From NCBI GenBank assembly GCA_965197525.1, contig OZ240211.1, positions 1,696,001 through 1,760,000 on the forward strand: a stretch of DNA of 64,000 bases, in the 5' to 3' direction. Source of the stretch: Nitrosopumilus sp. (GTDB lineage: Archaea; Thermoproteota; Nitrososphaeria; Nitrososphaerales; Nitrosopumilaceae). Shown piece by piece: positions 4,582 through 36,941 of this stretch (the stretch's first letter is position 1; each line of letters opens with the position of its first letter). The notes under the pieces were generated by a model. It did not search any database. It saw only the letters and a program-made list of their open reading frames with translations, and was not told the origin of the DNA. The translations under genes and the position numbers were made by a program.

Positions 4582-4600
4582 CTCCCACTCTGGGTTCAAG

Positions 4601-4761: not shown

Positions 4762-4812
4762 GATTGCTCATAAAACAGTCGTTTATGGAATTTGTAATCC
4801 GGATGGATAGCC

Positions 4813-5901: not shown

Positions 5902-6061
5902 GTTTTTCTGAATTATTTTGCAGGTAGCTCAATCTCGAGTATTTTTGATTGGATATCTAATCTAAACACTAAATCGTCAAATGTTCTAGAATGTACATGT
6001 CTGCCCAAATCGTAACCGGATCAAAATAGGTTCGTACAAGGATTAGAACTCTGGCTTGATA

Positions 6062-6130
6062 CTATAATATCGTAGAATCGCCGCAGTTGACTGTTTGTAC
6101 ATTGTTGTGCCATTTTTTATGATATGATTC
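6062..6130 (-). pseudogene. 3'-terminal fragment of the MBL hydrolase, truncated by IS3
   Basis: Matches the last ~23 codons of 19088-20584 and ends at the IS3 terminal repeat. Confidence 0.75.
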
Positions 6131-17581: not shown

Positions 17582-17607
17582 GGGTTCAAATCCCCGTGGG
17601 CCCACTC
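17582..17607 (+). repeat. att-like duplication of tRNA-Val 3' end
   Basis: GGGTTCAAATCCCCGTGGGCCCACTC identical to 4559-4584 (26 bp). Confidence 0.9.
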
Positions 17608-17637
17608 TCATTTGGGTTCAAATCCTTTTTTGATGGT

Positions 17638-17783
17638 CTATAGGTTATTTTTGGTCAGTTTTATAGTAAAAACTGACGCATTCGGATGCTTTGCCACTTT
17701 GTTATGGGGTGAACGACTACCTTGTCTTCACTGCCCTCCTTTGTTATGGTCACAGGTCTATTTCCAATTGTTTCTTTTACCAT
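17638..17783 (-). pseudogene. small ORF remnant, second copy
   Basis: MVKETIGNRPVTITKEGSEDKVVVHPIT/KVAKHPNASVFTIKLTKNNL*; same frameshift as the copy at 4601-4761. Confidence 0.5.
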
Positions 17784-17834
17784 GATTGCTCATAAAACAG
17801 TCGTTTATAGAATTTGTAATTCGCATGGATGGCC

Positions 17835-18923: not shown

Positions 18924-19087
18924 GTCTTTCTAAATTATTTTGCAGACAACTCAATCTCGAGTATCTTTGATTGGTCATACTTGATCTGACAACTAAGATC
19001 ATCGCATGTTATAGAATATACATGTCTGCTACAAGCCGTAACCGGATCAAAATAGGTTCACATAAGGACTGGAATTCTGGCCTGATA

Positions 19088-20584
19088 CTATAATATCGTA
19101 GATTCGCCGTGGTTGACTGATTGTACATTGTTGTGCCATTTTTTATGGTATGATTCGTTTTCAAGGGAGGTATGAATTGGGATCAGTTTTTTTGCCTTTG
19201 TACCGTCAATTACACGCTTTATCTGTTGGCCGTCACCATGACCTGAGACATGCACCTGATTCCAGTCCCTCTCACTTGTAATCAATCCAAAGTGTTCAAG
19301 CCAGTTTTTGATCGTCTCTTGCCTGAATTCCATTTCTGCGTCAAACGGCTCCGTCAGTGACCTGATATAGCTAGAACCGTTGCTTGGTTTGATGTCTATT
19401 AACTCTTGTAGTTTGAAATCACTCAATGACAGCATTATCTCATCTTGTTTTTCAGATACGTCACGGTAGTCGATACTGTTGTCATATTCAAGAAAATCCC
19501 TTGCCCAACTACCATAATCCTCGCGTAAAAGTTTCTTGGTAAATCGATTTCTGTTCTTATCAACTAGTCCCCATTCGCCCTTTGGAATGTATATCCTGAT
19601 GTGTCTGTCATTAGGACTAGGGTATATCCCGTGCAAGTCAGCAGATTCGTCAAATAGTTTTAGCAGATATGCTTGCTTTAGATCTATTGCCAGATATCTG
19701 TCTGCAGCCTTTGCTGCAAGATAAAATGATTCAAGCCTGTCCAAATCTCGTATTGGATAGCCACACACAACGAGTTTTTTGGCATTACTTGCAATCTGGC
19801 TCACTTTCTCTTCTATGTCATACTCTGTCATGGAGGGATTCTGATCTATTCTGGTTCCCTCACACAATAACAGATCAAGTGATGCATCTGCACATTTGTC
19901 AACAAATCTTTCAGTATCTTCCTTACGCCTGCCATGAAATCGGAGATCTGCAGTATTTGCAATCATACCCTTTGATGTCTCCAAGAGAAAGCCATGAACT
20001 CCGGAGATCGAATGATCCACCGGCAACGGAGTCACCCTGATATCGCCAACGGAAAACTCTTTGTTACTTTCAAATACTTGTATGTTCCGAGGTATTTTAT
20101 TGCCTTTTTCTTTTGCCATCTTGCCTTTTGTAGGACCTCTCTTGATTTTATGAATCTGAAACTTTTCTGTCATCTCGATGTACTGTTCACCGACACCTGT
20201 ATCATCAAAGTTCTGCATGATTAGTCTTGATTCCTCTGAACAGTAAATTGGAATATCTTCTCTTAGATATTTTATGTATGCACAATGATCTACATGCGCA
20301 TGTGTTAGAAGAATCCCGTCGATCTCAGTATCTTCCCGTCCTCCTATTCCCATATGTCTTGCATAATCTCTCCTGTAGAGGCCTTTGATATTTGGCAAGA
20401 TTCCAAGCTCAATCATGTCGACTAGGCTGTTTGAGCCCCTGGCCTTCATGTATTCTGAAAAATATCTATTTTCTGCACTAAAACTCATGCCAAAATCCAT
20501 GAAAATTTTTGTATTTCTATCCTCTACTAGGAACTTGTTTCCACCAATATCTTTAACTCCCCCATGAAAGGTAATAGAGGTCAT
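19088..20584 (-). CDS. metallo-beta-lactamase fold hydrolase (RNase J / beta-CASP-like)
   Basis: FHGGVKDIGGN, DFG, LTHAHVDH, VDHS, TADLRFHG, EGT, HVSGH, LIPIHT motifs. Confidence 0.85.
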   Translation of the reverse strand: MTSITFHGGVKDIGGNKFLVEDRNTKIFMDFGMSFSAENRYFSEYMKARGSNSLVDMIELGILPNIKGLYRRDYARHMGIGGREDTEIDGILLTHAHVDHCAYIKYLREDIPIYCSEESRLIMQNFDDTGVGEQYIEMTEKFQIHKIKRGPTKGKMAKEKGNKIPRNIQVFESNKEFSVGDIRVTPLPVDHSISGVHGFLLETSKGMIANTADLRFHGRRKEDTERFVDKCADASLDLLLCEGTRIDQNPSMTEYDIEEKVSQIASNAKKLVVCGYPIRDLDRLESFYLAAKAADRYLAIDLKQAYLLKLFDESADLHGIYPSPNDRHIRIYIPKGEWGLVDKNRNRFTKKLLREDYGSWARDFLEYDNSIDYRDVSEKQDEIMLSLSDFKLQELIDIKPSNGSSYIRSLTEPFDAEMEFRQETIKNWLEHFGLITSERDWNQVHVSGHGDGQQIKRVIDGTKAKKLIPIHTSLENESYHKKWHNNVQSVNHGESTIL

Positions 20585-20934: not shown

Positions 20935-21696
20935 ATGTACATGTCTGCCCCAAACCGTAACCAGATCAAAATAGGGGCTAGAGTCTCAATTGAAACAAAA
21001 AAGAATCAGGGTACCGGTAAATTGACTGAAGGCACAGTAAAGACAATTCTAACTTCCTCTCAGATTCATCCTCATGGAATAAAGGTCAGCTTAGAAGGTG
21101 GTCAAATAGGTCGAGTAAAGCAGCTAGAGGATCAAAATCAGACTAGGGAAACTAACAAACCAATAGATTTGGACAAAATAGAGATACCAAAAACAGAAGA
21201 TGCAAGTAATGAGTTCAAAGAGTTCTACCAATATGACAAAAAAATACCGAATACAGATGACAAACAGGCAATAGGGGGAATAAAGCGTTCAGTACAGGAA
21301 CGATTTGCCACAGCAGTATGTTCCTTTGGTAATTCGTATGAGGGAGGATTTGTGTATCTGGGCATAAACTCTGATGGAGTTATAGTCGGATTGGAACAAG
21401 ATATGAAACTTGGAAAATTCTCAGATTATAGTGATTCATTTGCAAATCACATAGTAGACAAATTAGAGGATTTGTTAAAAGACAAGGTGTTTGTAACTAG
21501 TAAAATAAGGATAAAGTTTCGTCAGATTGAGAATAAAACAATATGTATAGTACATGTCTTGCCTGCAGATCGACCAATATATCTGCACACAAAATCAAAG
21601 ACGTTTTTTGTCAGAGGACCAGCACCCAAGGCAGTCAAATTTGACATGGATCAACAGTTCAAATATATCAAAGAACGATTTCCAAGATATGGTTGA
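20935..21696 (+). CDS. YwbE (DUF2196) - Schlafen/AlbA_2 fusion
   Basis: N-terminal NQGTGKLTEG...ILT...HPHGIKV...GRV (YwbE); C-terminal EFKE...AVCSFGNSYEGGFVYLGINSDG (AlbA_2). Confidence 0.75.
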   Translation: MYMSAPNRNQIKIGARVSIETKKNQGTGKLTEGTVKTILTSSQIHPHGIKVSLEGGQIGRVKQLEDQNQTRETNKPIDLDKIEIPKTEDASNEFKEFYQYDKKIPNTDDKQAIGGIKRSVQERFATAVCSFGNSYEGGFVYLGINSDGVIVGLEQDMKLGKFSDYSDSFANHIVDKLEDLLKDKVFVTSKIRIKFRQIENKTICIVHVLPADRPIYLHTKSKTFFVRGPAPKAVKFDMDQQFKYIKERFPRYG

Positions 21697-21705
21697 GGTA
21701 TACTA

Positions 21706-22662
21706 TTGACCAAGCTTTATCACAGTCCCATGTTTGATGAAATACGAGATTATTTTGAAAAAAGCAATCCAGATAATACAATTTACATTTTTGTACCATA
21801 CATCAAAACAACAGTATTAGAGAAGCTACTAGATGGTCTTCCCAATCCCAAAGTCATTGTCACAACTTGGAAGCCTAGAGATATTTTATTTGGTTCTTCT
21901 GAACTTGAACTGTATCCATATTGTCGTGATCAAAAAATCACATTGTATCTAAGCCCAAACATACACCTCAAGGTATACTCTGTGGAGTTGGAAGATGCCA
22001 TAATTGCAACCGGAAATGTGTCTAATCGAGGCCTTTTACCTAATGGAAACTATGAGGTTGGTGCAAACATTGAATCCCTCGATAATGATGATAGGTTGGT
22101 CTTTGGGAAGATACTCCATGAGGCAAGACTGGTAGATGATGTAATGTATGACAAGCTCACAGAATGGTATGAGAACAACAAGGTAGAGGCAGACAAGTAT
22201 CCTAGTCTGGAAGATATTGTGCCTCTGCCAGAAAAAGATGATTTTTCAGTGGCTGCATTGCCTATGACTCGTTCTGTAGATGAACTGGTATCGGGATACT
22301 TGAGGATTGTTGCAGGCAAGCGCCCATCTGAGGATTCTGAGATTGTCGCATGCGTGTTTCATGATATCGCAAATTATGATATATCTAAGGGACTATCAGA
22401 ATCTGAATTTATTGCAGAACTGACTCGAAGCTTTTTTGCACATCCGTTTATTCAAAGAATTGATGAATTTATTGCGCCAGAGGCATACTTTGGGAGAATA
22501 AAGGAATGGATTCAAGACAATTGCACTGATGTGCCTGTTCCAAGCAGACGAGAATTGACTGGAAACGTCCAAGTTTTATTGGAATGGTTTGAAAGGCTAG
22601 GAGATGGCAAATACAAGATAGATGTTCCAGGCAGACATTCACAAAGAATTAAAAAACTATAA
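21706..22662 (+). CDS. phospholipase D-family nuclease (single HKD-like motif)
   Basis: IHLKVY...AIIATGNVSNRGL...NYE; TTG start. Confidence 0.7.
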   Translation: MTKLYHSPMFDEIRDYFEKSNPDNTIYIFVPYIKTTVLEKLLDGLPNPKVIVTTWKPRDILFGSSELELYPYCRDQKITLYLSPNIHLKVYSVELEDAIIATGNVSNRGLLPNGNYEVGANIESLDNDDRLVFGKILHEARLVDDVMYDKLTEWYENNKVEADKYPSLEDIVPLPEKDDFSVAALPMTRSVDELVSGYLRIVAGKRPSEDSEIVACVFHDIANYDISKGLSESEFIAELTRSFFAHPFIQRIDEFIAPEAYFGRIKEWIQDNCTDVPVPSRRELTGNVQVLLEWFERLGDGKYKIDVPGRHSQRIKKL

Positions 22663-22679
22663 TCAAAACTCACTCAATA

Positions 22680-24299
22680 TCAAGTGTTCAGGTTTTTGTA
22701 TCTCCAAAGATCAGCGAAATATTCATCTGCAAGTTCTATTGACGGAAGTATGTCTAATATTCTGATCAACCTGAACTGTTCAGTACCGCCCATGCGCGGA
22801 CCGCGCATTCCGCGACCAATCATCTGCTGATGAAGCACTATGGATCTAGTGGGTCTAGCTATGAATACCACATCTATGTTGGGGGCATCAAAGCCAACTG
22901 AAAAAACATTAACATTGCATATGCATTTAATCACACCCTCTTTGAATTTTGATATGACATCACGTCTATACGCCATGGGTGTGTTCCCATCCACATGTGC
23001 CGCATTACCGCCCAACGCCAAAATTATGGCGCACATCAGCTTTGATTGTTTTAGATTGGGCGCAAAATATAATATTTGTTTGTTTTCAACTATCAACTCT
23101 TTCAATCGTTTGGCAATTGCGATATTTCTTATATTGTCCGCAGCTATCTCATCTAACAATGCCGGTGGAAGATCGTGATCATCGGCAAATCTTCTTCGTT
23201 GTTCCTGTGTAAGGATGAACTCTCTATTGGATTCAATCGTTTCAGGATCACAGTATGCAAGATACCCTTTTGATTGCAGATAGGATATGTTATCCATATC
23301 TCCAGAGTCTATCTCTATTATCTTATCGTTGAAATATTCACGTAATTTTGTGTTCTCTGGACTGTTCATTCCTCTTAGAGGTGTGGCAGTAAGGCCAACT
23401 ATTCTAGTGCCGTTTTCTTCAAGGCGCCGTATTACATTTTTGTGTGTACGTGCGATCACATTATGTGCCTCATCAGCCACCACAAGCTCAGGTTTGGGAA
23501 AATTACTGGAATCCAGCAAGTTATTCAATTTTTGATATGTGGCAACGATGAACGCATTAGGCTCGAAATTATTTGGATCATTCTTACCCCATACACGATA
23601 TACATGTAAATCGTCTTTGCCCAAATGTGACCAGATCTCTTGCATGGAAGTTATTGCCTGTTCGCATAACTCCTCACGGTCAGCAAGCCATACTACCTGT
23701 CTTTTTTCTCCTGCCTCTATGCCGTTGTTTAGAAAATTACTTACCATCTCCAAGGCAGTGCGTGTTTTGCCGGCACCGGTTGGCATTTTTATGATAAAAT
23801 GTACCCATGGATTCTCCACCAACCGCATTCCCTCGTAGAATACTTTACTTTGATACTCTTTTAACATTCGAAGTGGCTTGTTGGTAGGTATTGTGAATTC
23901 AGAAGTGCGATCCTGTTCTGGACTTGGAATTAGATTTTTGTCATACTCAAATTCTTCTATGAATGCTTGTGTTTCATTATTGCAACCCCATGCTAGTTTA
24001 GAAGCTTTCTCAATTGATTTTTCATATGCTTGATCATCTTGAGATGAAATAGGTATTCCGGTTCTCTGGAAAAATCTAAGACATTTCTTTTTATCCGCAT
24101 ATTTGAGAAGTTTTGCCCGAAATTCCGGTTTTTTGTAAGATGATATGTTTAGTGCATGATGAAGTTTGCCCAGCATATTTTTTGTCCCAATATCAAAATC
24201 TTCATTAGGGTTTATTTCCTTGAGAATAAAATTAAGCGTGTCCCAGTATTCTTTTAAAGAAAACTCTAATTCACTACGTGGTAATCTGTCATTTAACAC
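22680..24299 (-). CDS. SF2 DEAD/DEAH-box helicase (RadD/UvsW-like)
   Basis: MPTGAGKT, DEAH, GLTATP, VGFDAPNID, QMIGRGMRG. Confidence 0.9.
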   Translation of the reverse strand: MLNDRLPRSELEFSLKEYWDTLNFILKEINPNEDFDIGTKNMLGKLHHALNISSYKKPEFRAKLLKYADKKKCLRFFQRTGIPISSQDDQAYEKSIEKASKLAWGCNNETQAFIEEFEYDKNLIPSPEQDRTSEFTIPTNKPLRMLKEYQSKVFYEGMRLVENPWVHFIIKMPTGAGKTRTALEMVSNFLNNGIEAGEKRQVVWLADREELCEQAITSMQEIWSHLGKDDLHVYRVWGKNDPNNFEPNAFIVATYQKLNNLLDSSNFPKPELVVADEAHNVIARTHKNVIRRLEENGTRIVGLTATPLRGMNSPENTKLREYFNDKIIEIDSGDMDNISYLQSKGYLAYCDPETIESNREFILTQEQRRRFADDHDLPPALLDEIAADNIRNIAIAKRLKELIVENKQILYFAPNLKQSKLMCAIILALGGNAAHVDGNTPMAYRRDVISKFKEGVIKCICNVNVFSVGFDAPNIDVVFIARPTRSIVLHQQMIGRGMRGPRMGGTEQFRLIRILDILPSIELADEYFADLWRYKNLNT

Positions 24300-24309
24300 C
24301 CAAGTCCAC

Positions 24310-26088
24310 CTAATTCTTGTATGCTTTTCTTAGATGGTAACTCCATTTTACAAGATGTTCTTCCACAGTATTTCCTACGGATTGTGTACGGGTTAGATCA
24401 TCAAGATCATATTGGCCCTCAGCGTAGGCGTAGATGAGTCTGTCTATATCGGCCTTTAATTCTTTAGCGAGTTTTAACAGATCAGAATTTTGAGGATCAG
24501 CAGACAGGGCTTCTATTTCCTGGATTCTGCGATAAATCTCCACAAAAAATGGATGGCTCATATTATAATGGACTACTTTTTTGCCTACGTTGTCTAGCAC
24601 ATCTATGAATGGGCCGTCCGAGCGAGCCTTGTGATCGTGTATGATCTTATACGGCTTATCCGGATCCATTATCTCTGATACATATTTTTCTTGTTCTTCA
24701 GGATTATCAAAGAGTGTTTCTGCGTGTTGTTCTATATTGTCCTTGGCCTCTTCCGGAGATATCGTTGGCTGTAGCGGTGGACAAATTTCTGCAAGTTCTT
24801 TCTCGGTGCTGGTATGGCTTTGCAATGGTCCTGTTTCTGCTTCAGATTTCTTTTGATCCTCATCGGCCCAAACTTCTTCAAGCGCCTTTCTAAAATTGTT
24901 GATTATAGACGGTTGAAGTTTCTGTTGTAATATGTCTCTGAGTTCTTTAAGAGGTCTGGCGCCGATTTTTATATTCTTTACAGAGAACCAGTGATCTAAG
25001 ACCGGATCAAAATCTATCTCACATCCCCAAAACCTATCCGCTGGTTTTGTCGTCGGTGAAAATCTAGACATTGGACCATAATAGACCTCGCGGCCGTTTC
25101 TCAATATCGAAAACCCTTCATTTTCAAACACTCTTCTATCGTTATTAAATTTGCTACTTCCTCCATACCCCTTCAAATGTGCATTTTTTTCTCCTTTTCT
25201 CCAAGATTTAGGGAGCATGGATGTTCTGATTATGATCTTGCCTTTTTTCTCACCACTGCTAGGTGAATCTACAACATGTACCGGATGATCAAACACATGT
25301 TCAGGTTGGAGCGCTGCGCGGTCATCATCTGGAAATTTGGGATTTTTTGTAGCATAAAGTGGATCATGTGCGGTAACTGATACATTATTTGAACCATTAT
25401 CTATGAATATTTTCCGTAAATTGTTGTTTTTTATGGGCTTACCGTCTTTGATTATTTCTTCGCCTATGAATTTACGATAGATTCTGCCTAGACGATGTTT
25501 AAGCACATCTAGTTCAAATTCAGAATCAATTCGTTCAATCTTACTCCAAATTACTAGAGTACCATAGTCTCCCACCAGATCTTTGTATTCTGATGGAAGA
25601 TCTTTTTGCTCTACGGGATGCAGAAATGGATCTGCATCATTATCGATTCCACTGTTATCCAAAAATGTATATCTCCAATTCCCTTGTTTTTCTCTAGAAT
25701 ACACTTCAATTTTATCACATACATTGATTGCACCCATAGTCATTCGTGGATAGATTGATTGCACCCATAGTCATTAAACCACTCCAAACCTGCCTATTCC
25801 TTTACGATCATCGTATCTATTCGAATAGCCGATAGCTAGGCAATGTTGCAATGTATCAGAATCCATCCCGTGTCCGTCATCACCGACTGCTATACAAACC
25901 GGACGGGGCTTATGTTTGCCCTGCGGTGTACTCATCTTGAATTTGAGTCTAATCTCTTTTGCGTAAGCTTGAATCGAGTTATCAACTACTTCGTAGATTG
26001 CCGAATATGCATTAAAGTCGTTATTGCGAAGAGATTTTAGGGCGGCCCCAATACGTATGGGAGATATTTTTTCAGTACTCATTATCAT
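24310..26088 (-). pseudogene. GHKL (Hsp90/MORC-like) ATPase interrupted by a 33-bp insertion with two stops
   Basis: EVVDNS, DDGHGMD, GIGRFGV in 25774-26088; continues in frame into 24310-25764. Confidence 0.8.
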
Positions 26089-26112
26089 ACCCTCTGCATA
26101 CCCTTTTTTATA

Positions 26113-26952
26113 TTATAGGTGGCAGACAGTACAAGGTGTGGACTCGTCCTCCTCATCCAAGGCGTCTGCAAGCACATCAACTAGCGGCAGGTTCTTTCGT
26201 TTTGATTTGACTCTTTTGAGGTTCTCTGCCTGTCTGGCCATTATATCATCACGTCTTTCCAACAACTCGGTTAATGTCTCGCCTTCAGACCATGTATATT
26301 GCCGTCCCTTCATTCCACTTGATTTAAAATTCGCATCCCCTGCAACTCCTGCATCCTTGAGTATCTTTTGCTCGATTGCGACTGCACGCTTGAACAAATC
26401 AGGATGGTTGTCTGCAAGACCAACCCATTCAGATTTACGCTGAAAGAAGCAGAAATAACATCCGGAACGTGTCCGCCACTTGTAATAATCTGGCAGGTTG
26501 ATTCCTGCATCTTCTAGAATTTTTACTACACCCGCATGATCAATATCTGCATCAATGAATGGAAATACTGTCTTGATGTTGGGCTTGGTCGATATATATC
26601 CTGTCCTGTTTTTCTCATCTGCACGTATTGCCACATATGATATCACGTCATCATCACCTATCCAATCTTCTAGTGGTTTTATCTTCAACATGCTAGTACA
26701 CCACCTCATCTGTGGGGATGGCAAGGTGCCACGATATACTTCAAAATAGTGATCAAAACTTCGTGTAGAATTTAGTTTTTCAATTTTTTTGCCCAATACC
26801 ACCTCAAGCTTTGCAAGATATGCATATGTCTCTGGAAGTTCTGCACCAGTGTCACAAAAGAAATATTCCATGTCGGTAACTTTGTCTCTCATGTATACGG
26901 CAAGAGCACTAGAGTCTTTGCCACCAGAAATACCACAAACATGCCTTGGCAT
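26113..26952 (-). CDS. sspD: PAPS reductase-family protein (SspD-like)
   Basis: GISGGKDSS, CDTGAELPET, RWCT..LK, RSGCYFCFFQ; context with desulfurase, DUF4007 and ATPase. Confidence 0.75.
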   Translation of the reverse strand: MPRHVCGISGGKDSSALAVYMRDKVTDMEYFFCDTGAELPETYAYLAKLEVVLGKKIEKLNSTRSFDHYFEVYRGTLPSPQMRWCTSMLKIKPLEDWIGDDDVISYVAIRADEKNRTGYISTKPNIKTVFPFIDADIDHAGVVKILEDAGINLPDYYKWRTRSGCYFCFFQRKSEWVGLADNHPDLFKRAVAIEQKILKDAGVAGDANFKSSGMKGRQYTWSEGETLTELLERRDDIMARQAENLKRVKSKRKNLPLVDVLADALDEEDESTPCTVCHL

Positions 26953-27010
26953 GATACTAGAAATTTATTACATCATATAACTATTTAATATCAGACAATA
27001 ACTTGGAAGT

Positions 27011-27178
27011 TTATTTTATCTTGGCAGCTAGCGTGTCAAATTCCTTTTTTGAAACAGTGAGGCAGAACAATACCTTATCTGGCTTTTTGGCATTCTTTAC
27101 CATTGGATAGAATTTGATTACATATTTGCCGTCTTTTTTCGTGATATCGTATGGTCTATCGCCAATCTTGTCTCTCAT
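27011..27178 (-). CDS. 55-aa basic protein (below ORF-track cutoff)
   Basis: MRDKIGDRPYDITKKDGKYVIKFYPMVKNAKKPDKVLFCLTVSKKEFDTLAAKIK; homologous to two remnants next to the att sites. Confidence 0.6.
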   Translation of the reverse strand: MRDKIGDRPYDITKKDGKYVIKFYPMVKNAKKPDKVLFCLTVSKKEFDTLAAKIK

Positions 27179-27315
27179 GCGGTTTTTCAATATCCTGTGA
27201 TTTTATAGGTTTATCGGTAGTTTTTTCCCAAAATTCATTTGAAACTTAGATATTGTGCTTGGTAAATTGGGAATTCTACCAAAACATATTATACTTCTTT
27301 AGTGTAGTATATGTG

Positions 27316-27376
27316 CCTATATTCGAATCCTCTAGCCTAACATAGTTAGGGACCTAGGGGCTCATGTGAATATAGG
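27316..27376. ncRNA. candidate structured RNA / long hairpin 3' of DUF3800-like gene
   Basis: Nested stems CCTATATTC/GAATATAGG (9 bp), CCTCTAG/CTAGGGG (6 of 7), CCTAAC/GTTAGG (6 bp). Confidence 0.4.
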
Positions 27377-27381
27377 AGCTT

Positions 27382-27954
27382 TTATTTAAAAAAAGTCCGT
27401 AGTTCTTTTTCAAGATATTGTGTGATATCCATCGCAACCACGCCATCTGGTTCGAAACCTTTGTTATTTGACCAAGCAACCAAGTCAGATAACATGTGTG
27501 CATTTCCTTCTTTGGTATAACGCAAACCATTGTCTTTTGCAAAATTTTTACAGTCATAATCACATTGAAAATTGATCTCAGATAATGAAGTATTGTGTTT
27601 GTGTGTAAATTCTGTTATTTGATCTCTTATTCGATGCAATATTAAATAATTATATGCATGAAAAAGTTTTCCTATTGAAATCGAGTAATGCTTCTTCCTT
27701 AAATTATTTTTGAGCTTATCAATTATTGTCTTCTTGTCAATTCTAATACAAAATGCAATAGACTCATTATTATTAAATTTTAATTTTGAAACAAGCGTCT
27801 TACGATTATATTTGTATGTATTTTGAAGAACTTGTTCATATTCCAAATGTTTAATTATAGAATTAATATTCTCGCTTGTGCCAATAACGATTCCTAGATA
27901 TTTGTAATTTCCAATTTGAGTATTTCCAGAAACATCCATTCCTCCAATAATCAT
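27382..27954 (-). CDS. DUF3800-like protein
   Basis: N-terminal GMDVSGN...YLGIV and C-terminal MLSDLVAW, matching the DxSG...ADxxA pattern. Confidence 0.5.
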   Translation of the reverse strand: MIIGGMDVSGNTQIGNYKYLGIVIGTSENINSIIKHLEYEQVLQNTYKYNRKTLVSKLKFNNNESIAFCIRIDKKTIIDKLKNNLRKKHYSISIGKLFHAYNYLILHRIRDQITEFTHKHNTSLSEINFQCDYDCKNFAKDNGLRYTKEGNAHMLSDLVAWSNNKGFEPDGVVAMDITQYLEKELRTFFK

Positions 27955-27966
27955 AGTTTACTCCGT

Positions 27967-30900
27967 TTATTTTTCACTTAATATTGCCACAAGTGCATCG
28001 ACATCTTTATCTGTGAATCCGTTTTTCTTCATGTCTACAAGTATTTTGTTTACTATTTTTTCCATCTTCTTTTTTTGTTCTGGCTTCAAAGATACTATGT
28101 TATTATGTTCTCTACCATCAGCATGAGTGACGGTAATCTGATACGATGGTTTTACAAAATTGTCAGACACATCTGAAAAATTCATCGATGCAAGTCTTTT
28201 GAATCTTCTAGATACCTCAGCTAGATTATTCTCAAACAGTTCACACTGATCATCTTTCCAAGATTCTGGAGGAACATCTGTAAGGCTCAAAGCAATGTAG
28301 CTTATCCAATCTTCTTCCCTATCTATGGTATCTGAAGACACTACAGTCAAAAACACCTTCATTTTATGATCAGTTACATTTTTCAGCATGACTGAAGCGG
28401 CCTGTGAAACCTTTTTTCTGTCGTCTATTCCCGTGTAATCAAACAGCATTTTTTTAATATCCTGAAGCATTTTAGAATAGGCGTTTTGAAGATTAGTTTT
28501 TGATTTTGTTAGTGTTTTTGAAAACTTTGTGATCTCTGATTTTGATTTATCTGAGTTAAAAGAATCAAATCCCAAGGCCTTTGGAAGTGATTCAAACAGT
28601 AACGTGTCTGGCTCTCTTGCCTCAAGTATGGTATTTCTTACGGCAATAGTGTTTTTGTCTAGATTTTTGGTCTGTCTTGCATATGGTACAAGAACAGAGG
28701 TAATTCGCACCAGATGAGATACAACATCTAGTACACTGCCTTCTGAATTTATATCAAAATCTTTGATTACTGTACTTAGTAGTTGTTTTTTTGATGCAGT
28801 GCTTGTAAAATATTTCAACTCAAAATGGCTTGGATTTTTTATCATTCGCTCTACGATCTCTATTCCAAGTTTTGGTGAATACGTTCCATGCTCGTACAAT
28901 GCGATGTTGTTTTTGTAAATCAGTAAGATCGTAGTGATGATGATATCAATTGTACCTGTTTTCATGCCATATGGCGGCATCTTGCACAGTTGGTGTATCG
29001 AATGCAATGATACACGTTTTTTGGATTTTTTCAACATCTTCAATATTTTATCCCATACAGGATACAGAGTATTATCTGATGAGGGTGACTTTAGTTTCCA
29101 ATCAAGATTAGAATCAGCAACATGAATATTGTTTTTTACAAAAATTGCTTCATATACTGCACGATCAGGCCCGTAACCATCTATTCCAAAGCGTGCTTTA
29201 TTGGTATCAATTATCATGTTCTCTAGTAATTGTCGTTTTGCAGCAGTGCCCTGTGATGAAAGAATTGTACGGTTTATCATCTCATTGTGTATCTTGGGCG
29301 TATCTGGATATGCATCATCACTTACGGTGGATGCTATTGCACTTGGCGTTCCATTTAACATTTTGTTGTCATATGACCACCTTGCAGTACTGCCGTGCGT
29401 ATTGCCAAATTCTCTGTCCAGAATTATTTCTGCATCAGATAATCTCTCCTCTAGTTCTTTGTGTGATACCCAGTCTGATATTACATCCTGGTCATTTTCC
29501 AAAATGTCTCGAATTGCCATAACGTTAATTGCTTCACGGAGTAGTATTGACGTATCTTCTGGTTTTACTGTAATCAGAGGCTTGTTGCATATTACATTTG
29601 TCGAACTGCCTGTATCATACAGAATCGCACCATCATAGCTGTCATCTAGTATGATCTCAGAAGATGTTGCAAATCGTCTCTCAAAAAGTCTCATGGTACC
29701 ATACTTTATGTTGTGTTTTGCAGCCACCACAGGTTCTAGTTCAATGACATTTTGGAGCATTTGGGTCAACGAGGATTTCGAATATCGTTTCTTGTACATG
29801 TCAAGCTTTGCAGCTATGTCGATATCGGTACCATGCCATATGCGGTACTCGTCTGCATATTTTCTGTATGTAATGATGGATTTGTTTTGTAGTTTCTTTA
29901 GAATTTGTTTTGATTTTGCACCGATTACATAATCTATGATTTGTTGAGATGCTCTAAGGTATCCCGATCTTGCAATCAAATTAAGAATTCCAATTGTCTT
30001 CAATGTCTTAATTTCGATTTTGTCTAATCCATACGAGTCACGAATTATGGTCTCAATCTCCATGAGACGAGTTATGTTTGCAGAGCTAGAATTAATCATG
30101 CTTGTACCTGATATGAAGTAATCATACAGAGTATCCAATCCAATTGTGGGAGGTTTGTCATCTTGCCAGTAATTTTCATCGATAAATGTTGCAACCGTGT
30201 TCTTGCCACCGTCTGAGATAAAGGACAACAAAGTTCGCTCATGTTGTCCGTATCTTGAACACAGCTCAGGTAGGACTTCAAGCGCTAATGGCTCTAGAGG
30301 ATAACACGATGCAATCAGATCTGGATCGAATCCTCCTTCTATGCCAAGGTTCTGCAATAATTTTGCCTTGCTTTTGGCCCAATTTCTCACTATTCGGCGA
30401 CGGCTATTATTAGGGGTTAGCTTGATGGTGTTCGAGATTAATTGTCTTGTCTGATTTGGTGAATTTGCAAATGGGATGTCTTCGAATCTGCCCTGAATCT
30501 TTGCCCATTCTTGCTTTCTTGCATGGGATGCGCCTACGGCATATTCCTCAAACGCCATGTGCTGCAGCGTTATAATTGATAGAGGAATTTTTCTTCCCGG
30601 CCCGGACATTTCTGCTAGCTCTTGCAGCAAGAACAGATCGCTTTCCTGTGTTTCATCTGTGGTAAAATATTCTATATTTTTGCCAAATTCATCAAGGATT
30701 ATAACTACAGGAGCAATCTTGCACATATCTACAATAATTTCAGTTATTTCCGAAACAGAAGGCACTGTTTTCTTTAGATTTCTAATGTGTTTTTTTAGAT
30801 GTCGTGCCGTCGAAAAGTGCTTTGTTGTGTATTTGTCAAAATACTTTGTTGCACCATCATCTAATGCCTTTAATATGGTTGCCGTAATTGGTTCGCGTCT

Positions 30901-31293
30901 TGCAGTTATTGCACATACAAGCATTCCCTTCTGGTGAATGTTTGCTTTTTCTCGTGCATCTAAAAGTATGGTAGTAACATTAAATGACTCGCGTTTAAGA
31001 ACATTATGCGCCGTCTTCCATTCCGATTTATGTCGTGCTACAAGAAGGCCTTTGAGAAATGTTGCCATGGTTGACTTGCCTGAACCATACGGTCCTGTAA
31101 TTGAGAGCATTCGTCCATCCTTTGCACCTGAAAGTCCAGCTGAAAAACGCTCAACTATCTCCAGAGTACTTGCACTAGGAAGATAGTTCTTTAATGCGGT
31201 GATATCATCATGTTCAATATTTGTAGAATTGTATTCCTTTGGAGGGATTGTAACTAGTTTTGAGAGTGGCTTGCGTTTTTGAACTGTTTTCAT
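27967..31293 (-). CDS. sspC: large P-loop ATPase (SspC/BrxC-like)
   Basis: 1108 aa; Walker A GPYGSGKS, Walker B IILDEFGK; 1-bp overlap with DUF4007 gene. Confidence 0.75.
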   Translation of the reverse strand: MKTVQKRKPLSKLVTIPPKEYNSTNIEHDDITALKNYLPSASTLEIVERFSAGLSGAKDGRMLSITGPYGSGKSTMATFLKGLLVARHKSEWKTAHNVLKRESFNVTTILLDAREKANIHQKGMLVCAITARREPITATILKALDDGATKYFDKYTTKHFSTARHLKKHIRNLKKTVPSVSEITEIIVDMCKIAPVVIILDEFGKNIEYFTTDETQESDLFLLQELAEMSGPGRKIPLSIITLQHMAFEEYAVGASHARKQEWAKIQGRFEDIPFANSPNQTRQLISNTIKLTPNNSRRRIVRNWAKSKAKLLQNLGIEGGFDPDLIASCYPLEPLALEVLPELCSRYGQHERTLLSFISDGGKNTVATFIDENYWQDDKPPTIGLDTLYDYFISGTSMINSSSANITRLMEIETIIRDSYGLDKIEIKTLKTIGILNLIARSGYLRASQQIIDYVIGAKSKQILKKLQNKSIITYRKYADEYRIWHGTDIDIAAKLDMYKKRYSKSSLTQMLQNVIELEPVVAAKHNIKYGTMRLFERRFATSSEIILDDSYDGAILYDTGSSTNVICNKPLITVKPEDTSILLREAINVMAIRDILENDQDVISDWVSHKELEERLSDAEIILDREFGNTHGSTARWSYDNKMLNGTPSAIASTVSDDAYPDTPKIHNEMINRTILSSQGTAAKRQLLENMIIDTNKARFGIDGYGPDRAVYEAIFVKNNIHVADSNLDWKLKSPSSDNTLYPVWDKILKMLKKSKKRVSLHSIHQLCKMPPYGMKTGTIDIIITTILLIYKNNIALYEHGTYSPKLGIEIVERMIKNPSHFELKYFTSTASKKQLLSTVIKDFDINSEGSVLDVVSHLVRITSVLVPYARQTKNLDKNTIAVRNTILEAREPDTLLFESLPKALGFDSFNSDKSKSEITKFSKTLTKSKTNLQNAYSKMLQDIKKMLFDYTGIDDRKKVSQAASVMLKNVTDHKMKVFLTVVSSDTIDREEDWISYIALSLTDVPPESWKDDQCELFENNLAEVSRRFKRLASMNFSDVSDNFVKPSYQITVTHADGREHNNIVSLKPEQKKKMEKIVNKILVDMKKNGFTDKDVDALVAILSEK

Positions 31294-32312
31294 TATGTTA
31301 TCTGCTCCTGTATCATTGCAACGGGCATGATCTTTTTGTCATATGCCAAAGAAAGTATTTCTTTTGATGCTTCTTCAATAGAATCAAACACCAAGTGTTG
31401 CGCACCGTTGATATTTTGTAGTTTGATTGAATCTGAGATATCACATGCGTTTGATAGCAAATCCAAAAGGTCATTTTCATTTATCTTAAAGATGTTGCCT
31501 ATACTGCCTGCCTCCGTTGCCAATCTGCTAAGAGACACATTCTTGGACTTTATGTCAGAACGAGCTATAAAATCAAGGCATGCAAAGGCTGTAATCAGTG
31601 GAGATACTCCATATTTTTTGCCAAATACAAACCTCATAGTATCTCGTGAACTCTGTTTTATCATGTGGAGCTGTCTTAACGGGCAGTCAAGATAATCTTC
31701 CATGGTAAGTTTGTTCTGCCTAGTAGTGTATGTATGTACAAATACATCAATATCTTTTTTTATGGATTTTGCATGTGCAATAACGCAAGTGCCATCTGCA
31801 TGCCGGGCTTGGCTAGCTCAAAACTGCACGCTGTCGTGGATTGTTTGTGTTTTCCATTCGGCAATGTTTGTAATGCGAGTAGTAATTGACTCGGTCACAT
31901 CCTCAATCTTTACGTTTGTTGCATGAAAATCATTCATTATCATCCACCATACCGGAACTTTACATGGTGGTGCAAAAAGTAGCCAGTGTAATAACCATAA
32001 AGTATCTGGCTTTTCAAGATATGGATCAAGTCCATATTTGTCATCAAATATTATATCGCCTATTTCTGTGCTGACCATAGTCGTGTTTGCACCAGAACCA
32101 CATGCTTCCATTATCTTGTTTGCACGTCCCCAGAATTTTATTGCTCGAACCATGTTTTTTCCAACACCTAGTTTTACTGTGGTATCCTCACGTTTGAATA
32201 TTGAAGGATCGTCTTGTATCTGATCATATGCTTTTTTGAGCCATCCGTATCTGAGATGAAACGATTCGTGGTTTGCAAATGTAGGTTTTGGTATGGCCTC
32301 TGTAACTAACAT
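31293..32312 (-). pseudogene. sspB: DUF4007 protein (SspB-like) interrupted by an in-frame TGA within an apparent 69-bp insertion
   Basis: FANHESFHLRYGWLKK, LGVGKNMVRAIKFW, DPYLE..TLWLLHWLL; both ORF halves in the same frame. Confidence 0.8.
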
Positions 32313-33473
32313 CTATCTCAGATTCTCCGTAATCTCTGCCTCTTTTTTTCGTACAAACTCTGCTGCTTGTGCAATGTCTATTGCAGCAGTTTCAATGTCT
32401 TTCATCTCCGTATGTCTTCCAACAGATACGCGGATTGATTCGTCTGCTGCAGTACGATCTAGTCCCATTGCGGTAAGTACATGTGATGGTTCCATCGTAT
32501 TAGAAGAGCATGCACTTCCTGATGAGATTTCAATATGTTTAGTATTAACAATCACTGCGTCTGATTGTGCACCGTGTATTCTTATACTTGATGTATTTGG
32601 AAGGCGTTCTGTATTCTCGCCGTTTATCGTTACATTTGAAATGAGAGATTTTATTCTTGATTCTAAATTATCGCGCAGTACCAACAGTTTTGCTGACTCT
32701 TTTGGAATTATCTCGTATGCAATCTGGCATGCCTTGCCGAATCCCACGATTCCAGAAACATTTTGTGTGCCACTGCGCAGGCCTTTTTCCTGTCCTCCCC
32801 CATAAATCAACGGAGTCATGCTTTTCCGTATATGACGTGATGCCACAAATGCGCCTACTCCCTTGGGACCATACATCTTGTGGCTACTGCAGGTGGAAAT
32901 ATCTATTCCAAGGTCATGAATGTCGACTGGAATCTTACCTGCAGCTTGTGTAATATCGCTGTGAAGTATGGCGCCTGCATCATGGACAATCTTGGATATC
33001 TCCTTTATGGGGTTTATCACTCCGGTCTCGCTGTTTGCAAGCATTATGGATACCACGTCAGTTTCTGGCTCTATCTTTTCGCTTAATACATCAAGGTCTA
33101 TTACTCCATCAGATTTTACGGGAATTACAAATATTTCTGATCCGAATCGTTTCATAAAGTTGCATGGCTCAATGACAGACTTGTGTTCTGTAGCACCATA
33201 TAATATGCGGTGATTGTTTTCTATGTTCAGTCCAATTCCGGCTATTGCCATGTTGTTGGCCTCTGTAGCTCCGGATGTAAAGATGACGTCCTCCTTGTCC
33301 GCACCAATTAATATCGCTAACTTCTCTCTTGCGTCATCTATCAAATCCATTGCGTCCATTCCTGAGTCATGTGTGCTAGATGGGTTTCCAAATTTTTTTT
33401 TGAACACTGGAATCATTTCATCAATTACTCTTTGGTCTACTGGAGTTGTGGAATTGTAATCTAGATATACCAT
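32313..33473 (-). CDS. sspA: cysteine desulfurase (IscS/SspA-like)
   Basis: YLDYNSTTP, FTSGATEANN, HKMYGPKG, SSGSACSS; start re-placed at ATG 33473; stop abuts sspB start. Confidence 0.85.
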   Translation of the reverse strand: MVYLDYNSTTPVDQRVIDEMIPVFKKKFGNPSSTHDSGMDAMDLIDDAREKLAILIGADKEDVIFTSGATEANNMAIAGIGLNIENNHRILYGATEHKSVIEPCNFMKRFGSEIFVIPVKSDGVIDLDVLSEKIEPETDVVSIMLANSETGVINPIKEISKIVHDAGAILHSDITQAAGKIPVDIHDLGIDISTCSSHKMYGPKGVGAFVASRHIRKSMTPLIYGGGQEKGLRSGTQNVSGIVGFGKACQIAYEIIPKESAKLLVLRDNLESRIKSLISNVTINGENTERLPNTSSIRIHGAQSDAVIVNTKHIEISSGSACSSNTMEPSHVLTAMGLDRTAADESIRVSVGRHTEMKDIETAAIDIAQAAEFVRKKEAEITENLR

Positions 33474-35295: not shown

Positions 35296-35389
35296 TGATA
35301 CCAAGTTACAGTTGTAGTATGCAATACTCAAACAGTCACTTGCATTTAGCTTCTAAAAGTTTGTAATCAATCACATAACATTTGTGGGA

Positions 35390-36805
35390 TCCCGAAAGTA
35401 GTTCGCCCCTCTTCAAAACTTGGAGATGTTTGCATGTATGATGTTCTAGAGTGTTGTATAACTCTCTTGCGCTAAATTCCACTATACAATTCATGAATTT
35501 TATTCATTTCCACTCCACGCATGGCAACTATTCAAAAAATTATGTATAGTATCCACTAAGGATAACATCTGTTTTGATATCATAATGTTACTCTACACTG
35601 TACTCTTGACCTGTTTGACTATCTGTCACCGTCTTGCCAGCAGGTGGCATCTTTCTCTTAAATGCCTGTACCGGAGTCTCTAGATTGTCCCAGTCAAGTG
35701 ACATATGCGGTCTGTTGTAGTTGTACCATTCCATGAACCGTTCCACGGGATCCTTTGCAGATGCGGTGTAAAACGGTCCTCCTACACTAGAGTTCTCTGT
35801 TGTACCACGTCGAGTCTTGCCAGCTGAGGCACCTTCAAAGTGGCCTAGTTTGCGCTGTATCTCTCCGTGCAGACGTTCTAGTTTACCATTTGTCTGTGGA
35901 TGTCGTACACGTGCCAATATGTGTTTGATGTCAAGTTCCACCAGTCTTTGTTCAAATTTGGAGGCACCCTTCTTCTTGGCCTCAGACTCTGTGGCATAGA
36001 ACTGGGTACCGCGATCTGTCAGGATTGATGCAGGCTTGCCGTGATTTTTTATGGCCTCATCAAGTACCTTTAGGGCGTTTTCTGTAGTTGCCTCTGCAAA
36101 TACCCCAAAACCAGTCACAAAACGTGAAGCGTCATCCTGGTAACATATGAGCCATCTGCCATCGTCAAGCTGTTTGAAATCAGTATGCCACAGGGAATTG
36201 GAGTAAGTTCGTTCCCACCTAACCCACTTGCGCCTCTTGCTCTTGTTTGGACTGGCATCTACATAATCTGCATCTTTCAATACTTTGTGTATAAAGTTGT
36301 GCGCAATATACATTCCTACAGATGATCTTATGACGCGCTCCAAGGTTGCAGCTCCTCGAATCTCGTTTGCTATTGCTGAGAGAATCACAGAGTGTTCTAG
36401 TCGTCCGGGCGCACTCTTTTTGGGTCTTCCCATTGGGGCAGGATACACTATCTTGTCTGCATCTTTGTATCTCTTGTGCAGCTTTTGAACCCATCTGACA
36501 GAGACGTTCATCTTTGCTGCAATCTCTCTGTTACTGGCAGTATTCTTGCGTTTTTCTCTGATAATCCATTCCACTTTGGACAAGTCAAGTTTTTTCATTA
36601 CTCGTACTCTCCGTCTTCCTATATAACGCCACACAGTAGAGCGTCTCCATCTGCGGACCCACACACCGCTGTTTCCAGTAATGGACAAGTTGACTGTGTC
36701 TTTCATAGATTTTACATGGGATGCCATGCCGCTGAAAAAATCGGTCATGGAACACGCCCACCTAGGCTATGAGCCTGATGTGAGGGGTGAACTACTTTCG
36801 GGACA
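35390..36805 (-). mobile_element. IS481-family insertion sequence
   Basis: 20-bp inverted repeats TCCCGAAAGTAGTTCGCCCC (35390-35409) / GGGGTGAACTACTTTCGGGA(CA) (36784-36805), one mismatch. Confidence 0.8.
35588..36748 (-). CDS. IS481-family DDE transposase (likely start ATG 36598)
   Basis: WHTDFKQ, DDASRF, ILTDRGTQF, HPQTNGKLER, YNYNRPHMSL. Confidence 0.85.
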   Translation of the reverse strand: MTDFFSGMASHVKSMKDTVNLSITGNSGVWVRRWRRSTVWRYIGRRRVRVMKKLDLSKVEWIIREKRKNTASNREIAAKMNVSVRWVQKLHKRYKDADKIVYPAPMGRPKKSAPGRLEHSVILSAIANEIRGAATLERVIRSSVGMYIAHNFIHKVLKDADYVDASPNKSKRRKWVRWERTYSNSLWHTDFKQLDDGRWLICYQDDASRFVTGFGVFAEATTENALKVLDEAIKNHGKPASILTDRGTQFYATESEAKKKGASKFEQRLVELDIKHILARVRHPQTNGKLERLHGEIQRKLGHFEGASAGKTRRGTTENSSVGGPFYTASAKDPVERFMEWYNYNRPHMSLDWDNLETPVQAFKRKMPPAGKTVTDSQTGQEYSVE

Positions 36806-36941
36806 ATACACAATCACATAACATTTAATCATCTTATATTGCATCAAATCTCTGATTATCTTGCTTGTTACGTGCTCTGTATTCATTCCAAAACAATAAT
36901 TATTCCTAATACGCCTGTTATCCTGCTATTATTATTATTGG

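What the first reader, a model, noticed from the sequence alone, without database searches (positions are those of the whole stretch)
21706..33473. Archaeal sspABCD-like phosphorothioation cluster with a GHKL ATPase + SF2 helicase (+ convergent PLD) instead of SspE
Seen: desulfurase - DUF4007 - 1108-aa ATPase - (insert) - PAPS reductase, then co-oriented GHKL ATPase and helicase, converging on a PLD nuclease. No DUF262 protein, PglZ or BrxL is visible. Knowledge: SspABCD makes single-strand PT and pairs with SspE or SspFGH in bacteria; archaeal PT defence described so far is DndCDEA-PbeABCD, where PbeA has PLD and helicase domains. Inference: a new modification-effector pairing.
Basis: partly seen in the sequence, partly recalled or inferred. 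Interest (0 to 1): 0.8.

Follow-up and report, generated by a model that had tools for sequence, protein, structure and literature searches.

The report
Unnamed partner module of DNA phosphorothioation
Beside the genes that tag this archaeon's own DNA with sulfur sit three genes (a clamp-like ATPase, a DNA motor and a nuclease) that recur beside such tagging genes in many archaea and bacteria; they are probably an undescribed virus-defence arm for some of the many sulfur-tagging systems whose 'weapon' has been missing.

Summary
The locus is real: sspA-sspB-sspC-(190 aa)-(55 aa)-sspD, then a MORC-like GHKL ATPase and a RadD/SauUSI-like SF2 helicase, facing a PLD nuclease. The stop-codon breaks in sspB and the GHKL gene are missing from the contigs of the best-matching sequencing runs, so both genes are most likely intact.

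The three genes match no SspE/F/G/H, Pbe or DndFGH model. They form a conserved module beside phosphorothioation (PT) genes. In 401 Nitrososphaeria genomes the GHKL occurs in 27: 22 with sspC, 4 beside dnd clusters, 1 beside sspD. It recurs in single operons with sspBCD in cyanobacteria, a spirochaete and alphaproteobacterial plasmids.

The PLD's C-terminal domain resembles FokI/SspB/BrxA DNA-recognition modules. One bacterial subtype adds a PC4 protein carrying a copy of the GHKL C-terminal domain.

Best reading: an undescribed ATP-driven restriction arm that uses PT as the self mark. I found no paper or HMM describing it; function is inferred, not tested.

The parts
21706..22662 (+). PLD-family nuclease, 318 aa. 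N-domain 1-155 is a single-HxK Nuc/BfiI/SauUSI-type PLD; C-domain 176-318 is an HTH/winged-helix module resembling FokI, N.BspD6I, BrxA and SspB recognition domains
   Evidence: H87, K89, N104, E117 invariant in 45 homologues; model pLDDT 92.5; Z 17.5 SauUSI (rmsd 1.9, 144 aligned), 14.8 BfiI, 14.6 Nuc; C-domain Z 7.7 N.BspD6I (rmsd 3.4, 130 aligned), 6.6 FokI, 6.4 BrxA, 6.3 SspB, which are moderate values
22680..24299 (-). SF2 helicase/translocase, 539 aa, with an uncharacterised 140-aa N-terminal domain
   Evidence: Motifs I, II (DEAH), III, V, VI intact; best solved relatives RadD E 1e-39 and SauUSI E 1e-29; PbeA only 71 bits over the generic motor
24310..26088 (-). MORC/paraMORC-like GHKL ATPase, 581 aa when read as in the sequencing runs: GHKL + S5 + helical linker + C-terminal domain
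   Evidence: E33, N37, D70, G72, G74 and the G-rich lid present; 92% identical to intact L161 copy; fold SMCHD1 Z 21.8, MORC3 Z 20.6; best sequence hits MORC4/3/2, E 2e-10 to 1e-8
25746..25778 (.). 33-bp extra sequence (local duplication) carrying the stop codons that split the GHKL gene; probable assembly artefact
   Evidence: Skipped by contigs of X1, X2, X3; absent in L009, L161, L162; direct repeat D9
26113..26952 (-). SspD (PAPS-reductase/PP-loop sulfurtransferase), 279 aa
   Evidence: PADLOC SspD 362 bits; SGGKDS and CxxC motifs
27011..27178 (-). Conserved 55-aa ORF of unknown function, found beside ssp and dnd clusters of related archaea
   Evidence: Homologues in at least 12 other loci; not PC4-like
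27382..27954 (-). 190-aa accessory protein, possibly DUF3800-like (RNase H fold); present only in some relatives, with two unlinked paralogues in this genome
   Evidence: No Pfam/PADLOC hit; Atlas feature hit 0.92 to a cluster with DUF3800 on 15% of members, a lead only; paralogues
27967..31293 (-). SspC P-loop ATPase, 1108 aa
   Evidence: PADLOC SspC 985 bits; Walker A at 67 and Walker B at 198
31293..32312 (-). SspB (DUF4007), 316 aa when read as in the sequencing runs
   Evidence: PADLOC SspB and Pfam DUF4007 on both halves; 69% identical to the intact L161 copy
31772..31846 (.). 75 bp standing where the runs have 6 bp, made of colinear scraps of a DDE transposase found elsewhere in the genome; probable consensus artefact or trace of a minority insertion allele
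   Evidence: Skipped by X1, X2, X3 contigs; 23-bp and 41-bp exact matches inside the transposase at G000:1927665-1928183
32313..33473 (-). SspA cysteine desulfurase, 386 aa
   Evidence: PADLOC SspA 449 bits; PLP lysine motif (SSHK) and catalytic cysteine motif (GSAC) present
20935..21696 (+). DUF2196 (YwbE) + Schlafen AlbA_2 gene, co-oriented with the PLD 9 bp upstream of it; recurrent accessory gene of the module in related archaea and some other loci
   Evidence: Pfam; recurrence next to the module

Best explanation
The locus is a complete PT-based restriction-modification unit with a so far unnamed effector arm.

Modification (inferred from homology to tested systems): SspA draws sulfur from cysteine; SspD, with the ATPase SspC and the DNA-binding/nicking SspB, writes single-strand phosphorothioates into the host's DNA. 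The motif is unknown here.

Restriction (inferred): the PLD protein dimerises to make one active site, as Nuc, BfiI and SauUSI do, and its C-terminal winged-helix module reads the target site or its PT state. The SF2 motor translocates on DNA. The MORC-like GHKL dimer acts as an ATP-gated clamp that holds the motor and licenses cutting or nicking of incoming DNA that lacks PT. The GHKL-helicase pair is an exchangeable motor cassette. In one bacterial subtype a PC4 ssDNA-binding protein docks through a copy of the GHKL C-terminal domain. The same arm serves either Ssp or Dnd modification genes and can be stacked with SspE.

Shown here: gene identities, intact catalytic motifs, folds, linkage. 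Not shown: PT in this genome, antiviral activity, PT dependence, complex formation.
For: Linkage in the class: GHKL in 27 of 401 genomes; 22 of 27 SspC-positive genomes have it (19 within 12 kb on one contig, 3 fragmented); 4 of the other 5 have it beside dnd genes and 1 beside sspD.

Linkage elsewhere: metagenome loci of 8 kb or more with GHKL plus adjacent helicase: 24 of 26 have the PLD and 22 of 26 have PT core genes. Single co-oriented operons: L183, L185, L187 (sspA-B-C-D-Hel-GHKL-PLD); Trichormus, where the desulfurase follows the trio; a 21-kb Pleomorphomonas plasmid carrying the whole set. In a phylum draw of 401 the PLD family was found at full length only in 8 genomes, all GHKL-positive.

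Anatomy: nearest folds of the PLD are restriction nucleases, with a FokI/SspB/BrxA-like second domain. MORC-like GHKL + SF2 helicase + HKD nuclease is a predicted restriction architecture (PMC2292703).

Behaviour typical of defence genes: many gene orders; Ssp and Dnd neighbours interleave on the GHKL tree; GHKL and helicase co-vary (rho 0.75) and are swapped as a pair.

Complex prediction GHKL(178-581) + helicase: weak support, 0.35 against best control 0.01. That mark was reached by 58 of 80 solved complexes and 2 of 110 mismatches, but at 0.60 or under by only 7 of the 80 and by both mismatches; contact agreement at least 31%, partner pLDDT at least 77.
Against: No functional test exists. 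GHKL and helicase divergence is unrelated to SspC/SspD divergence (rho 0.05-0.22), as expected of an autonomous passenger as well. Only 4 of 28 Dnd-only genomes carry the module. L186 has the trio with no PT gene in the 15 kb held, and L184, L014, L132 and L136 have no adjacent PLD. The PLD lies on the opposite strand in 20 of 63 loci, including this one. The canonical Asp of HxKxxxxD is not conserved. Rakesh et al. (PMC10853773) argue that DndFGH and PbeABCD act independently of PT, so neighbourhood need not mean PT dependence. The genomes counted are kin, so the Fisher values overstate.
Confidence: 0.6

Rival explanations
1. The trio is a self-sufficient defence system that only travels with PT loci. 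It may be a modification-dependent (type IV, SauUSI-like) nuclease against modified viral DNA, or an abortive-infection effector, and it does not read PT.
For: The PLD and helicase are closest to SauUSI. There is no co-variation of GHKL/helicase with SspC/D. The module accepts both dnd and ssp neighbours, whose marks differ. There is one PT-free trio. Other nucleases (GmrSD, HNH, AlbA) crowd the same loci.
Against: All 27 GHKL-positive genomes of the class have ssp or dnd genes: 26 have SspC or DndC and the last has sspD adjacent, while only 54 of the 224 family genomes have SspC or DndC. The genes are interleaved with sspA/dndA in operons. No recurrent DNA methyltransferase or other system is linked, apart from the PT-associated TIGR04096 gene.
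Confidence: 0.22
2. The trio is a housekeeping aid for PT-bearing genomes: a MutL-like clamp, a RadD-like motor, a PLD nuclease and a PC4 ssDNA-binding protein that repair strand breaks from PT oxidation or SspB nicks, or turn PT over.
For: Parallel to MutL-helicase-nuclease repair. The best helicase match is the repair protein RadD. The PC4 partner binds ssDNA. It serves both PT chemistries and coexists with SspE. That oxidised PT causes strand breaks is from my own knowledge, not checked here.
Against: It is absent from 24 of 28 Dnd-only genomes. The GHKL-helicase pair is replaced by 21-31% identical versions in loci whose SspC and PLD are 55-72% identical, a turnover unusual for repair genes. 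The PLD carries a restriction-enzyme-like recognition module.
Confidence: 0.12
3. The trio is a diverged form of a known PT effector (split PbeA, SspFGH, DndFGH) or of MZA/DISARM.
For: PbeA also joins PLD and SF2 domains; there are weak hits to PbeA (71 bits), DrmC (18 bits) and MzaB (27-73 bits).
Against: The hits cover only generic domains and lie far below cut-offs (MzaB 850, TIGR04095 600). There are no SspF/G/H, DndF/G/H or PbeB/C/D hits in the locus. None of those PT systems is described with a GHKL ATPase (PMC6459918, PMC8092258, PMC10853773).
Confidence: 0.04

Closest known systems
SspABCD-SspE and SspABCD-SspFGH (Xiong 2020; Wang 2021, PMC8092258)
   Same: Same four-gene single-strand PT modification module, with high-scoring SspA, B, C and D.
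   Different: The effector is GHKL + SF2 + PLD rather than the DUF262 nickase SspE or SspF (Walker A)/SspG/SspH (FtsK-like). It also occurs with dnd clusters and alongside SspE. Wang et al. found 83.9% of 2,678 sspBCD loci without either known effector.
DndCDEA-PbeABCD / CxC ABC-ATPase systems (PMC6459918, PMC10853773)
   Same: PT-associated, found in archaea and bacteria, uses a PLD (HKD) nuclease and an SF2 motor, and is loosely coupled in evolution to its modification genes.
   Different: PbeA is one PLD-helicase fusion working with an ABC ATPase (PbeC) and a DndE cognate (PbeD). Here PLD and helicase are separate, the PLD has its own winged-helix domain, and the third ATPase is a GHKL.
Prokaryotic MORC/paraMORC restriction-modification operons (Iyer, Abhiman, Aravind 2008, PMC2292703)
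   Same: GHKL+S5 ATPase beside a Rad25/type III-like SF2 helicase, sometimes with an HKD nuclease; predicted restriction role.
   Different: Those operons pair with DNA methylases and Vsr, and the HKD is fused to the helicase. Here the modification is PT and the PLD is separate. The MORC signature is altered to G-h-S-h-h-R-x-x-R-E-h, and the C-terminal domain is shared with a PC4 protein.
SauUSI, and CglI/NgoAVII PLD + helicase restriction enzymes
   Same: PLD fold (SauUSI Z 17.5; NgoAVII R protein Z 11.6) and an SF2 motor.
   Different: No GHKL and no PT link; SauUSI is a single polypeptide that targets methylated DNA.
MZA (MzaB GHKL ATPase), DISARM (DrmC PLD), BREX type 4
   Same: Single shared domains; BREX-4 shares SspB/C/D homologues.
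   Different: No Z1 helicase, AIPR, DrmA/B, PglZ or BrxL; scores far below cut-offs.

Membership tests
SspABCD modification module | Adjacent sspB, sspC, sspD with a cysteine desulfurase | tested here: met
   PADLOC 180+82, 985, 362 and 449 bits
SspABCD modification module | Intact reading frames and catalytic motifs | tested here: met
   Runs show sspB unbroken; motifs present. A minority broken allele is not excluded.
SspABCD modification module | Single-strand PT actually present in genomic DNA | not testable with these tools
   Needs LC-MS/MS or PT-seq
SspABCD-SspE | A ~770-aa DUF262-DUF1524 SspE gene linked to sspBCD | tested here: not met
   None in the locus; the only DUF262 in the genome is an unlinked 365-aa DUF262+HNH ORF
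SspABCD-SspFGH | sspF, sspG, sspH (FtsK-like) homologues | tested here: not met
   No SspF/G/H hit for any locus protein at E 0.1 or for homologues; the domain content differs
PbeABCD | PbeA PLD-helicase fusion | tested here: not met
   PLD and helicase are separate, convergent genes; PbeA hit is 71 bits on the motor only
PbeABCD | PbeC CxC ABC ATPase and PbeD DndE cognate | tested here: not met
   Not in the locus; locally built DndD/PbeC and DndE profiles find nothing convincing in the genome
BREX type 4 | PglZ and BrxL beside BrxP/BrxC | tested here: not met
   No PglZ in the genome; SspC 985 versus BrxC 330 bits and SspD 362 versus BrxP 39. BrxL was checked only among the locus proteins.
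Prokaryotic MORC/paraMORC RM operons | GHKL ATPase with ATP-binding motifs plus S5 domain | tested here: met
   Motifs; SMCHD1/MORC3/MutL folds over residues 10-404
Prokaryotic MORC/paraMORC RM operons | Adjacent SF2 helicase and nuclease | tested here: met
MORC family proper | GhXXhhpXXRhl motif in the S5 domain | tested here: not met
   0 of 71 rows match it strictly; the family has a related motif ending R-E-h. It is paraMORC-like; I could not assign it to paraMORC1-5.
Prokaryotic MORC/paraMORC RM operons | Linked DNA methyltransferase / Vsr | tested here: not met
   No recurrent methylase cluster among neighbours except the PT-associated TIGR04096 gene
MZA system | MzaB at cut-off, with Z1 and AIPR genes | tested here: not met
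   45-73 bits against a cut-off of 850; no other Mza hit in the locus
PLD-family endonuclease | HxK...N...E catalytic set on a Nuc-like fold | tested here: met
   H87, K89, N104, E117 invariant; Z 14.6-17.5 to Nuc, BfiI, SauUSI; the +7 Asp is not conserved
PT-based defence system | PT-dependent protection against viruses or plasmids | not testable with these tools
   Needs plaque or transformation assays

The most novel reading that the evidence does not exclude
A further, widespread class of PT effector, shared by Ssp and Dnd systems in both prokaryotic domains, in which a MORC-like clamp and SF2 motor form a swappable cassette that activates a PLD nuclease able to read the sulfur backbone mark itself, whether single- or double-stranded. 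It would be a prokaryotic MORC-type ATPase gated by an epigenetic mark.
Probability: 0.3. Interest if true: 0.88.

Novelty: new variant of a known kind. Interest (0 to 1): 0.75.

Why it matters
Most sspBCD loci (83.9% of 2,678 in PMC8092258) have no known restriction partner, and the authors raised the possibility of undiscovered ones. This module is a concrete, widespread candidate: 22 of 27 SspC-positive genomes in the class sample carry it, and more than 1,000 GHKL clusters score below 1e-30 (not all are in the module).

It would be an Ssp-type defence in ammonia-oxidising archaea and an effector shared by Ssp and Dnd. It would also give a tractable prokaryotic MORC-like ATPase tied to an epigenetic mark. 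It can be tested at once from cultured strains (Trichormus variabilis plasmid; Pleomorphomonas pSM30-2, 21 kb).

Tried and rejected
Pseudogene reading of sspB and the GHKL gene: rejected by the run contigs. Contigs drop rare variants, X1/X2 are probably the source sample, and X3 is from the same study.

Literature: ten searches and the papers read found no description of the module. PMC10853773 has no mention of MORC, GHKL, MutL or PC4 in its text or its one held supplement. PMC7544218 (Krishnan 2020), the original SspE paper and most subscription papers were not available, so prior mention in a figure or table is not excluded.

The 55-aa ORF as a PC4 stand-in: rejected (probability 2%).

Helicase N-terminal 140 aa: no Atlas hit above 0.78; not folded. 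GHKL C-terminal domain: barely tested by the fold searches. 190-aa protein: no Pfam hit even across 8 homologues.

Promoter and terminator scans were at chance level and use a bacterial model. No RNA holder was listed. Small-share runs were not used for habitat.

The mixture-model tree did not finish; the FastTree result was used only to show interleaving of labels, with short PT-less loci left out. My 'Dnd' label includes some CxC/PbeC ATPases; DndC/DndD identity was verified only for L133, L135 and L069. My local DUF262 profile missed the unlinked DUF262-HNH gene; corrected. One search failed on bad coordinates.

Full report
Setting. The window lies in a 2.21-Mb single-contig genome, 39.6% GC. 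The nearest loci, 79-85% identical in the GHKL protein, are titled Nitrosopumilus sp. MAGs, so the host is very likely a Nitrosopumilus-like ammonia-oxidising archaeon. The locus is flanked by an IS copy (35382-36811) and by HNH, metallo-beta-lactamase-fold and AlbA genes.

Observation. The minus strand carries SspA, SspB, SspC, a 190-aa ORF, a 55-aa ORF, SspD, a GHKL ATPase and an SF2 helicase, with gaps of 0-24 bp except the 429-bp gap holding the 55-aa ORF. The PLD converges 17 bp from the helicase stop. PADLOC places the four modification genes firmly in Ssp rather than BREX-4 or Dnd. The three other proteins have only weak single-domain hits: PbeA 71 bits, DrmC 18 bits, MzaB 27 bits, and none reaches an NCBIfam cut-off.

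The breaks. sspB and the GHKL gene are each split by extra DNA with an in-frame stop. The sspB insert is a patchwork of a DDE transposase gene elsewhere in the genome; the GHKL insert is a local duplication. Contigs of three runs from two samples skip both at depths like those of the neighbouring contigs, and one 7.9-kb contig crosses both sites with no other difference. Read that way the genes give 316-aa and 581-aa proteins, the latter 92% identical to an intact relative. The dominant DNA therefore has an intact locus; a rare insertion allele cannot be excluded from contigs.

Anatomy of the trio. The GHKL keeps all ATP-binding motifs. Its model (pLDDT 85.8) matches SMCHD1, MORC3, GRP94, MORC2 and MutL over residues 10-404, and its best sequence matches among solved proteins are MORCs. 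It lacks the strict MORC motif, so I call it paraMORC-like. The helicase has intact motifs and is nearest to RadD and SauUSI. The PLD has one HxK motif with H87, K89, N104 and E117 invariant on a SauUSI/BfiI/Nuc fold. Its second domain aligns over 130-136 residues with N.BspD6I, FokI, BrxA and SspB at Z 6.3-7.7. These are moderate scores, but from one class of DNA-recognition module.

Linkage in related archaea. In one draw of 401 genomes of the class, the GHKL family occurs in 27 and SspC in 27, all in the window's family, with 22 shared. Nineteen of the 22 have the two genes within 12 kb; three are fragmented. Of the five GHKL genomes without SspC, four have the module directly beside dnd genes and one beside sspD. 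DndC, DndD and DndE were verified for L135, and DndD for L133. The five SspC genomes without the GHKL have split or rearranged ssp loci in the regions fetched. DndC is present over cut-off in 49 genomes; only 4 of 28 Dnd-only genomes have the module, so in this family it prefers Ssp. These genomes are kin, so the p-values overstate.

Linkage beyond archaea. Among 40 metagenome loci of 8 kb or more, 26 have the helicase beside the GHKL; 24 of those have the PLD and 22 have PT core genes. Seven distant representatives chosen only for contig length gave six ssp loci, three of them as one sspA-B-C-D-helicase-GHKL-PLD operon. Named bacterial examples are Trichormus variabilis, Treponema saccharophilum, Rhodobacteraceae SC52 and the 21-kb plasmid pSM30-2 of Pleomorphomonas. 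A PLD search of 72,556 plasmids hit four records; the three I opened all carry ssp genes, helicase and GHKL. A sister GHKL clade without helicase (L074, L083, L088-090, L094, L095, L097, L098) is a different arrangement.

Internal structure. The GHKL tree shows a helicase-first subtype, a GHKL-first subtype (this window) and a GHKL-PC4-helicase subtype. Ssp and Dnd neighbours interleave among the window's close relatives. The ~200-aa PC4 protein ends in a domain homologous to the GHKL C-terminal domain (96.9%, E 1.6e-10), which suggests docking through a shared dimerisation domain. It is absent from this genome. Pairwise identities split into two blocks: GHKL with helicase (rho 0.75), and PLD with SspC/SspD (0.49 overall, 0.91-0.94 among ten archaeal loci), with little correlation between blocks. 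The second block may only reflect host ancestry, since PLDs beside dnd clusters are equally close to the window's. The first shows that the motor pair is exchanged as a cassette. A complex prediction for GHKL(178-581) with the helicase gave weak support: 0.35 against best control 0.01, with the calibration counts quoted under the best explanation.

Relation to SspE. None is linked here. However, L045 holds a true SspE inside a PLD-GHKL-PC4-helicase-SspE run, and about ten relatives carry a ~590-630-aa GmrSD-like gene (HEC-06/Orf5-like in the two tested) in the locus. The module is an alternative or an addition to SspE, as SspFGH is (PMC8092258).

Mechanism. I favour (0.6) an ATP-driven restriction arm using PT as the self mark: a PLD dimer with its own recognition module, driven by the SF2 motor and gated by the GHKL clamp. 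Rivals are an autonomous defence passenger (0.22), a PT repair or turnover aid (0.12) and a known system in disguise (0.04). Gene identity, motifs, folds and linkage are shown; PT, defence and complex formation are inferred.

Novelty. The PT effectors named in the papers I read or listed are DndFGH, PbeABCD, SspE, SspFGH, DndI and BREX-4. GHKL-helicase-nuclease operons were predicted with methylases, not PT (PMC2292703). I found no paper or profile for this combination, within the limits of the library. It is a new variant of a known kind, broad and directly testable: interest 0.75.

Noticed in passing
window 27011-27178 (-); remnant near window 17661-17783: Conserved 55-aa protein beside ssp clusters and upstream of dndB in related archaea; no family assigned, not PC4.
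   Followed up: partly
L046:2867-3472 and about 40 other loci: PC4-domain protein fused to a copy of the GHKL C-terminal domain, between GHKL and helicase in a bacterial subtype of the module.
   Followed up: partly
L010:6847-8628, L014:3770-5551, L131, L138, L143, L146, L147, L149, L181: ~590-660-aa GmrSD-like gene (HEC-06/Orf5-like in the two tested, not SspE) inserted in or beside the ssp cluster of relatives, usually on the opposite strand.
   Followed up: partly
class-level draw: DndC is common in the window's family (48 of 223 over cut-off, up to three copies), and 21 of 27 SspC genomes also have DndC: a high PT-system load in these archaea.
   Followed up: no
window 17579-19156 and 4556-6130: A 1.58-kb segment with the HNH gene is duplicated (92% identical); the second copy begins inside or next to tRNA-Val at 4507-4582, suggesting an integration site.
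   Followed up: no
window 35382-36811: IS element with a 386-aa transposase and 22-bp inverted repeats (35390-35411 and 36782-36803); at least three other near-full copies in the genome.
   Followed up: no
window 19088-20584 (-) and 20935-21696 (+): Metallo-beta-lactamase-fold gene and DUF2196-AlbA_2 gene, both recurring next to the module in other loci; possible backup effectors.
   Followed up: no
L017 (G099, another family of the same order): sspB-C-D followed by a GIY-YIG gene, a DndB-like gene and the desulfurase, without the trio: another archaeal Ssp arrangement.
   Followed up: no
G000:170397-173324, 353370-357266, 375771-379450, 1808878-1811800: A 12-mer recurs at about 730-800-bp spacing in four arrays, probably long repeat-protein genes.
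   Followed up: no
G135, G347, G395 sspC: sspC is split at nearly the same model position (about 635-657) in three genomes, the two halves on opposite strands in G347 and G395 (inversion or shared rearrangement).
   Followed up: no
L075:6219-7889, L087:6637-8253: Longer PLD variants (538-556 aa) with an extra C-terminal region beside DndC-type genes.
   Followed up: no
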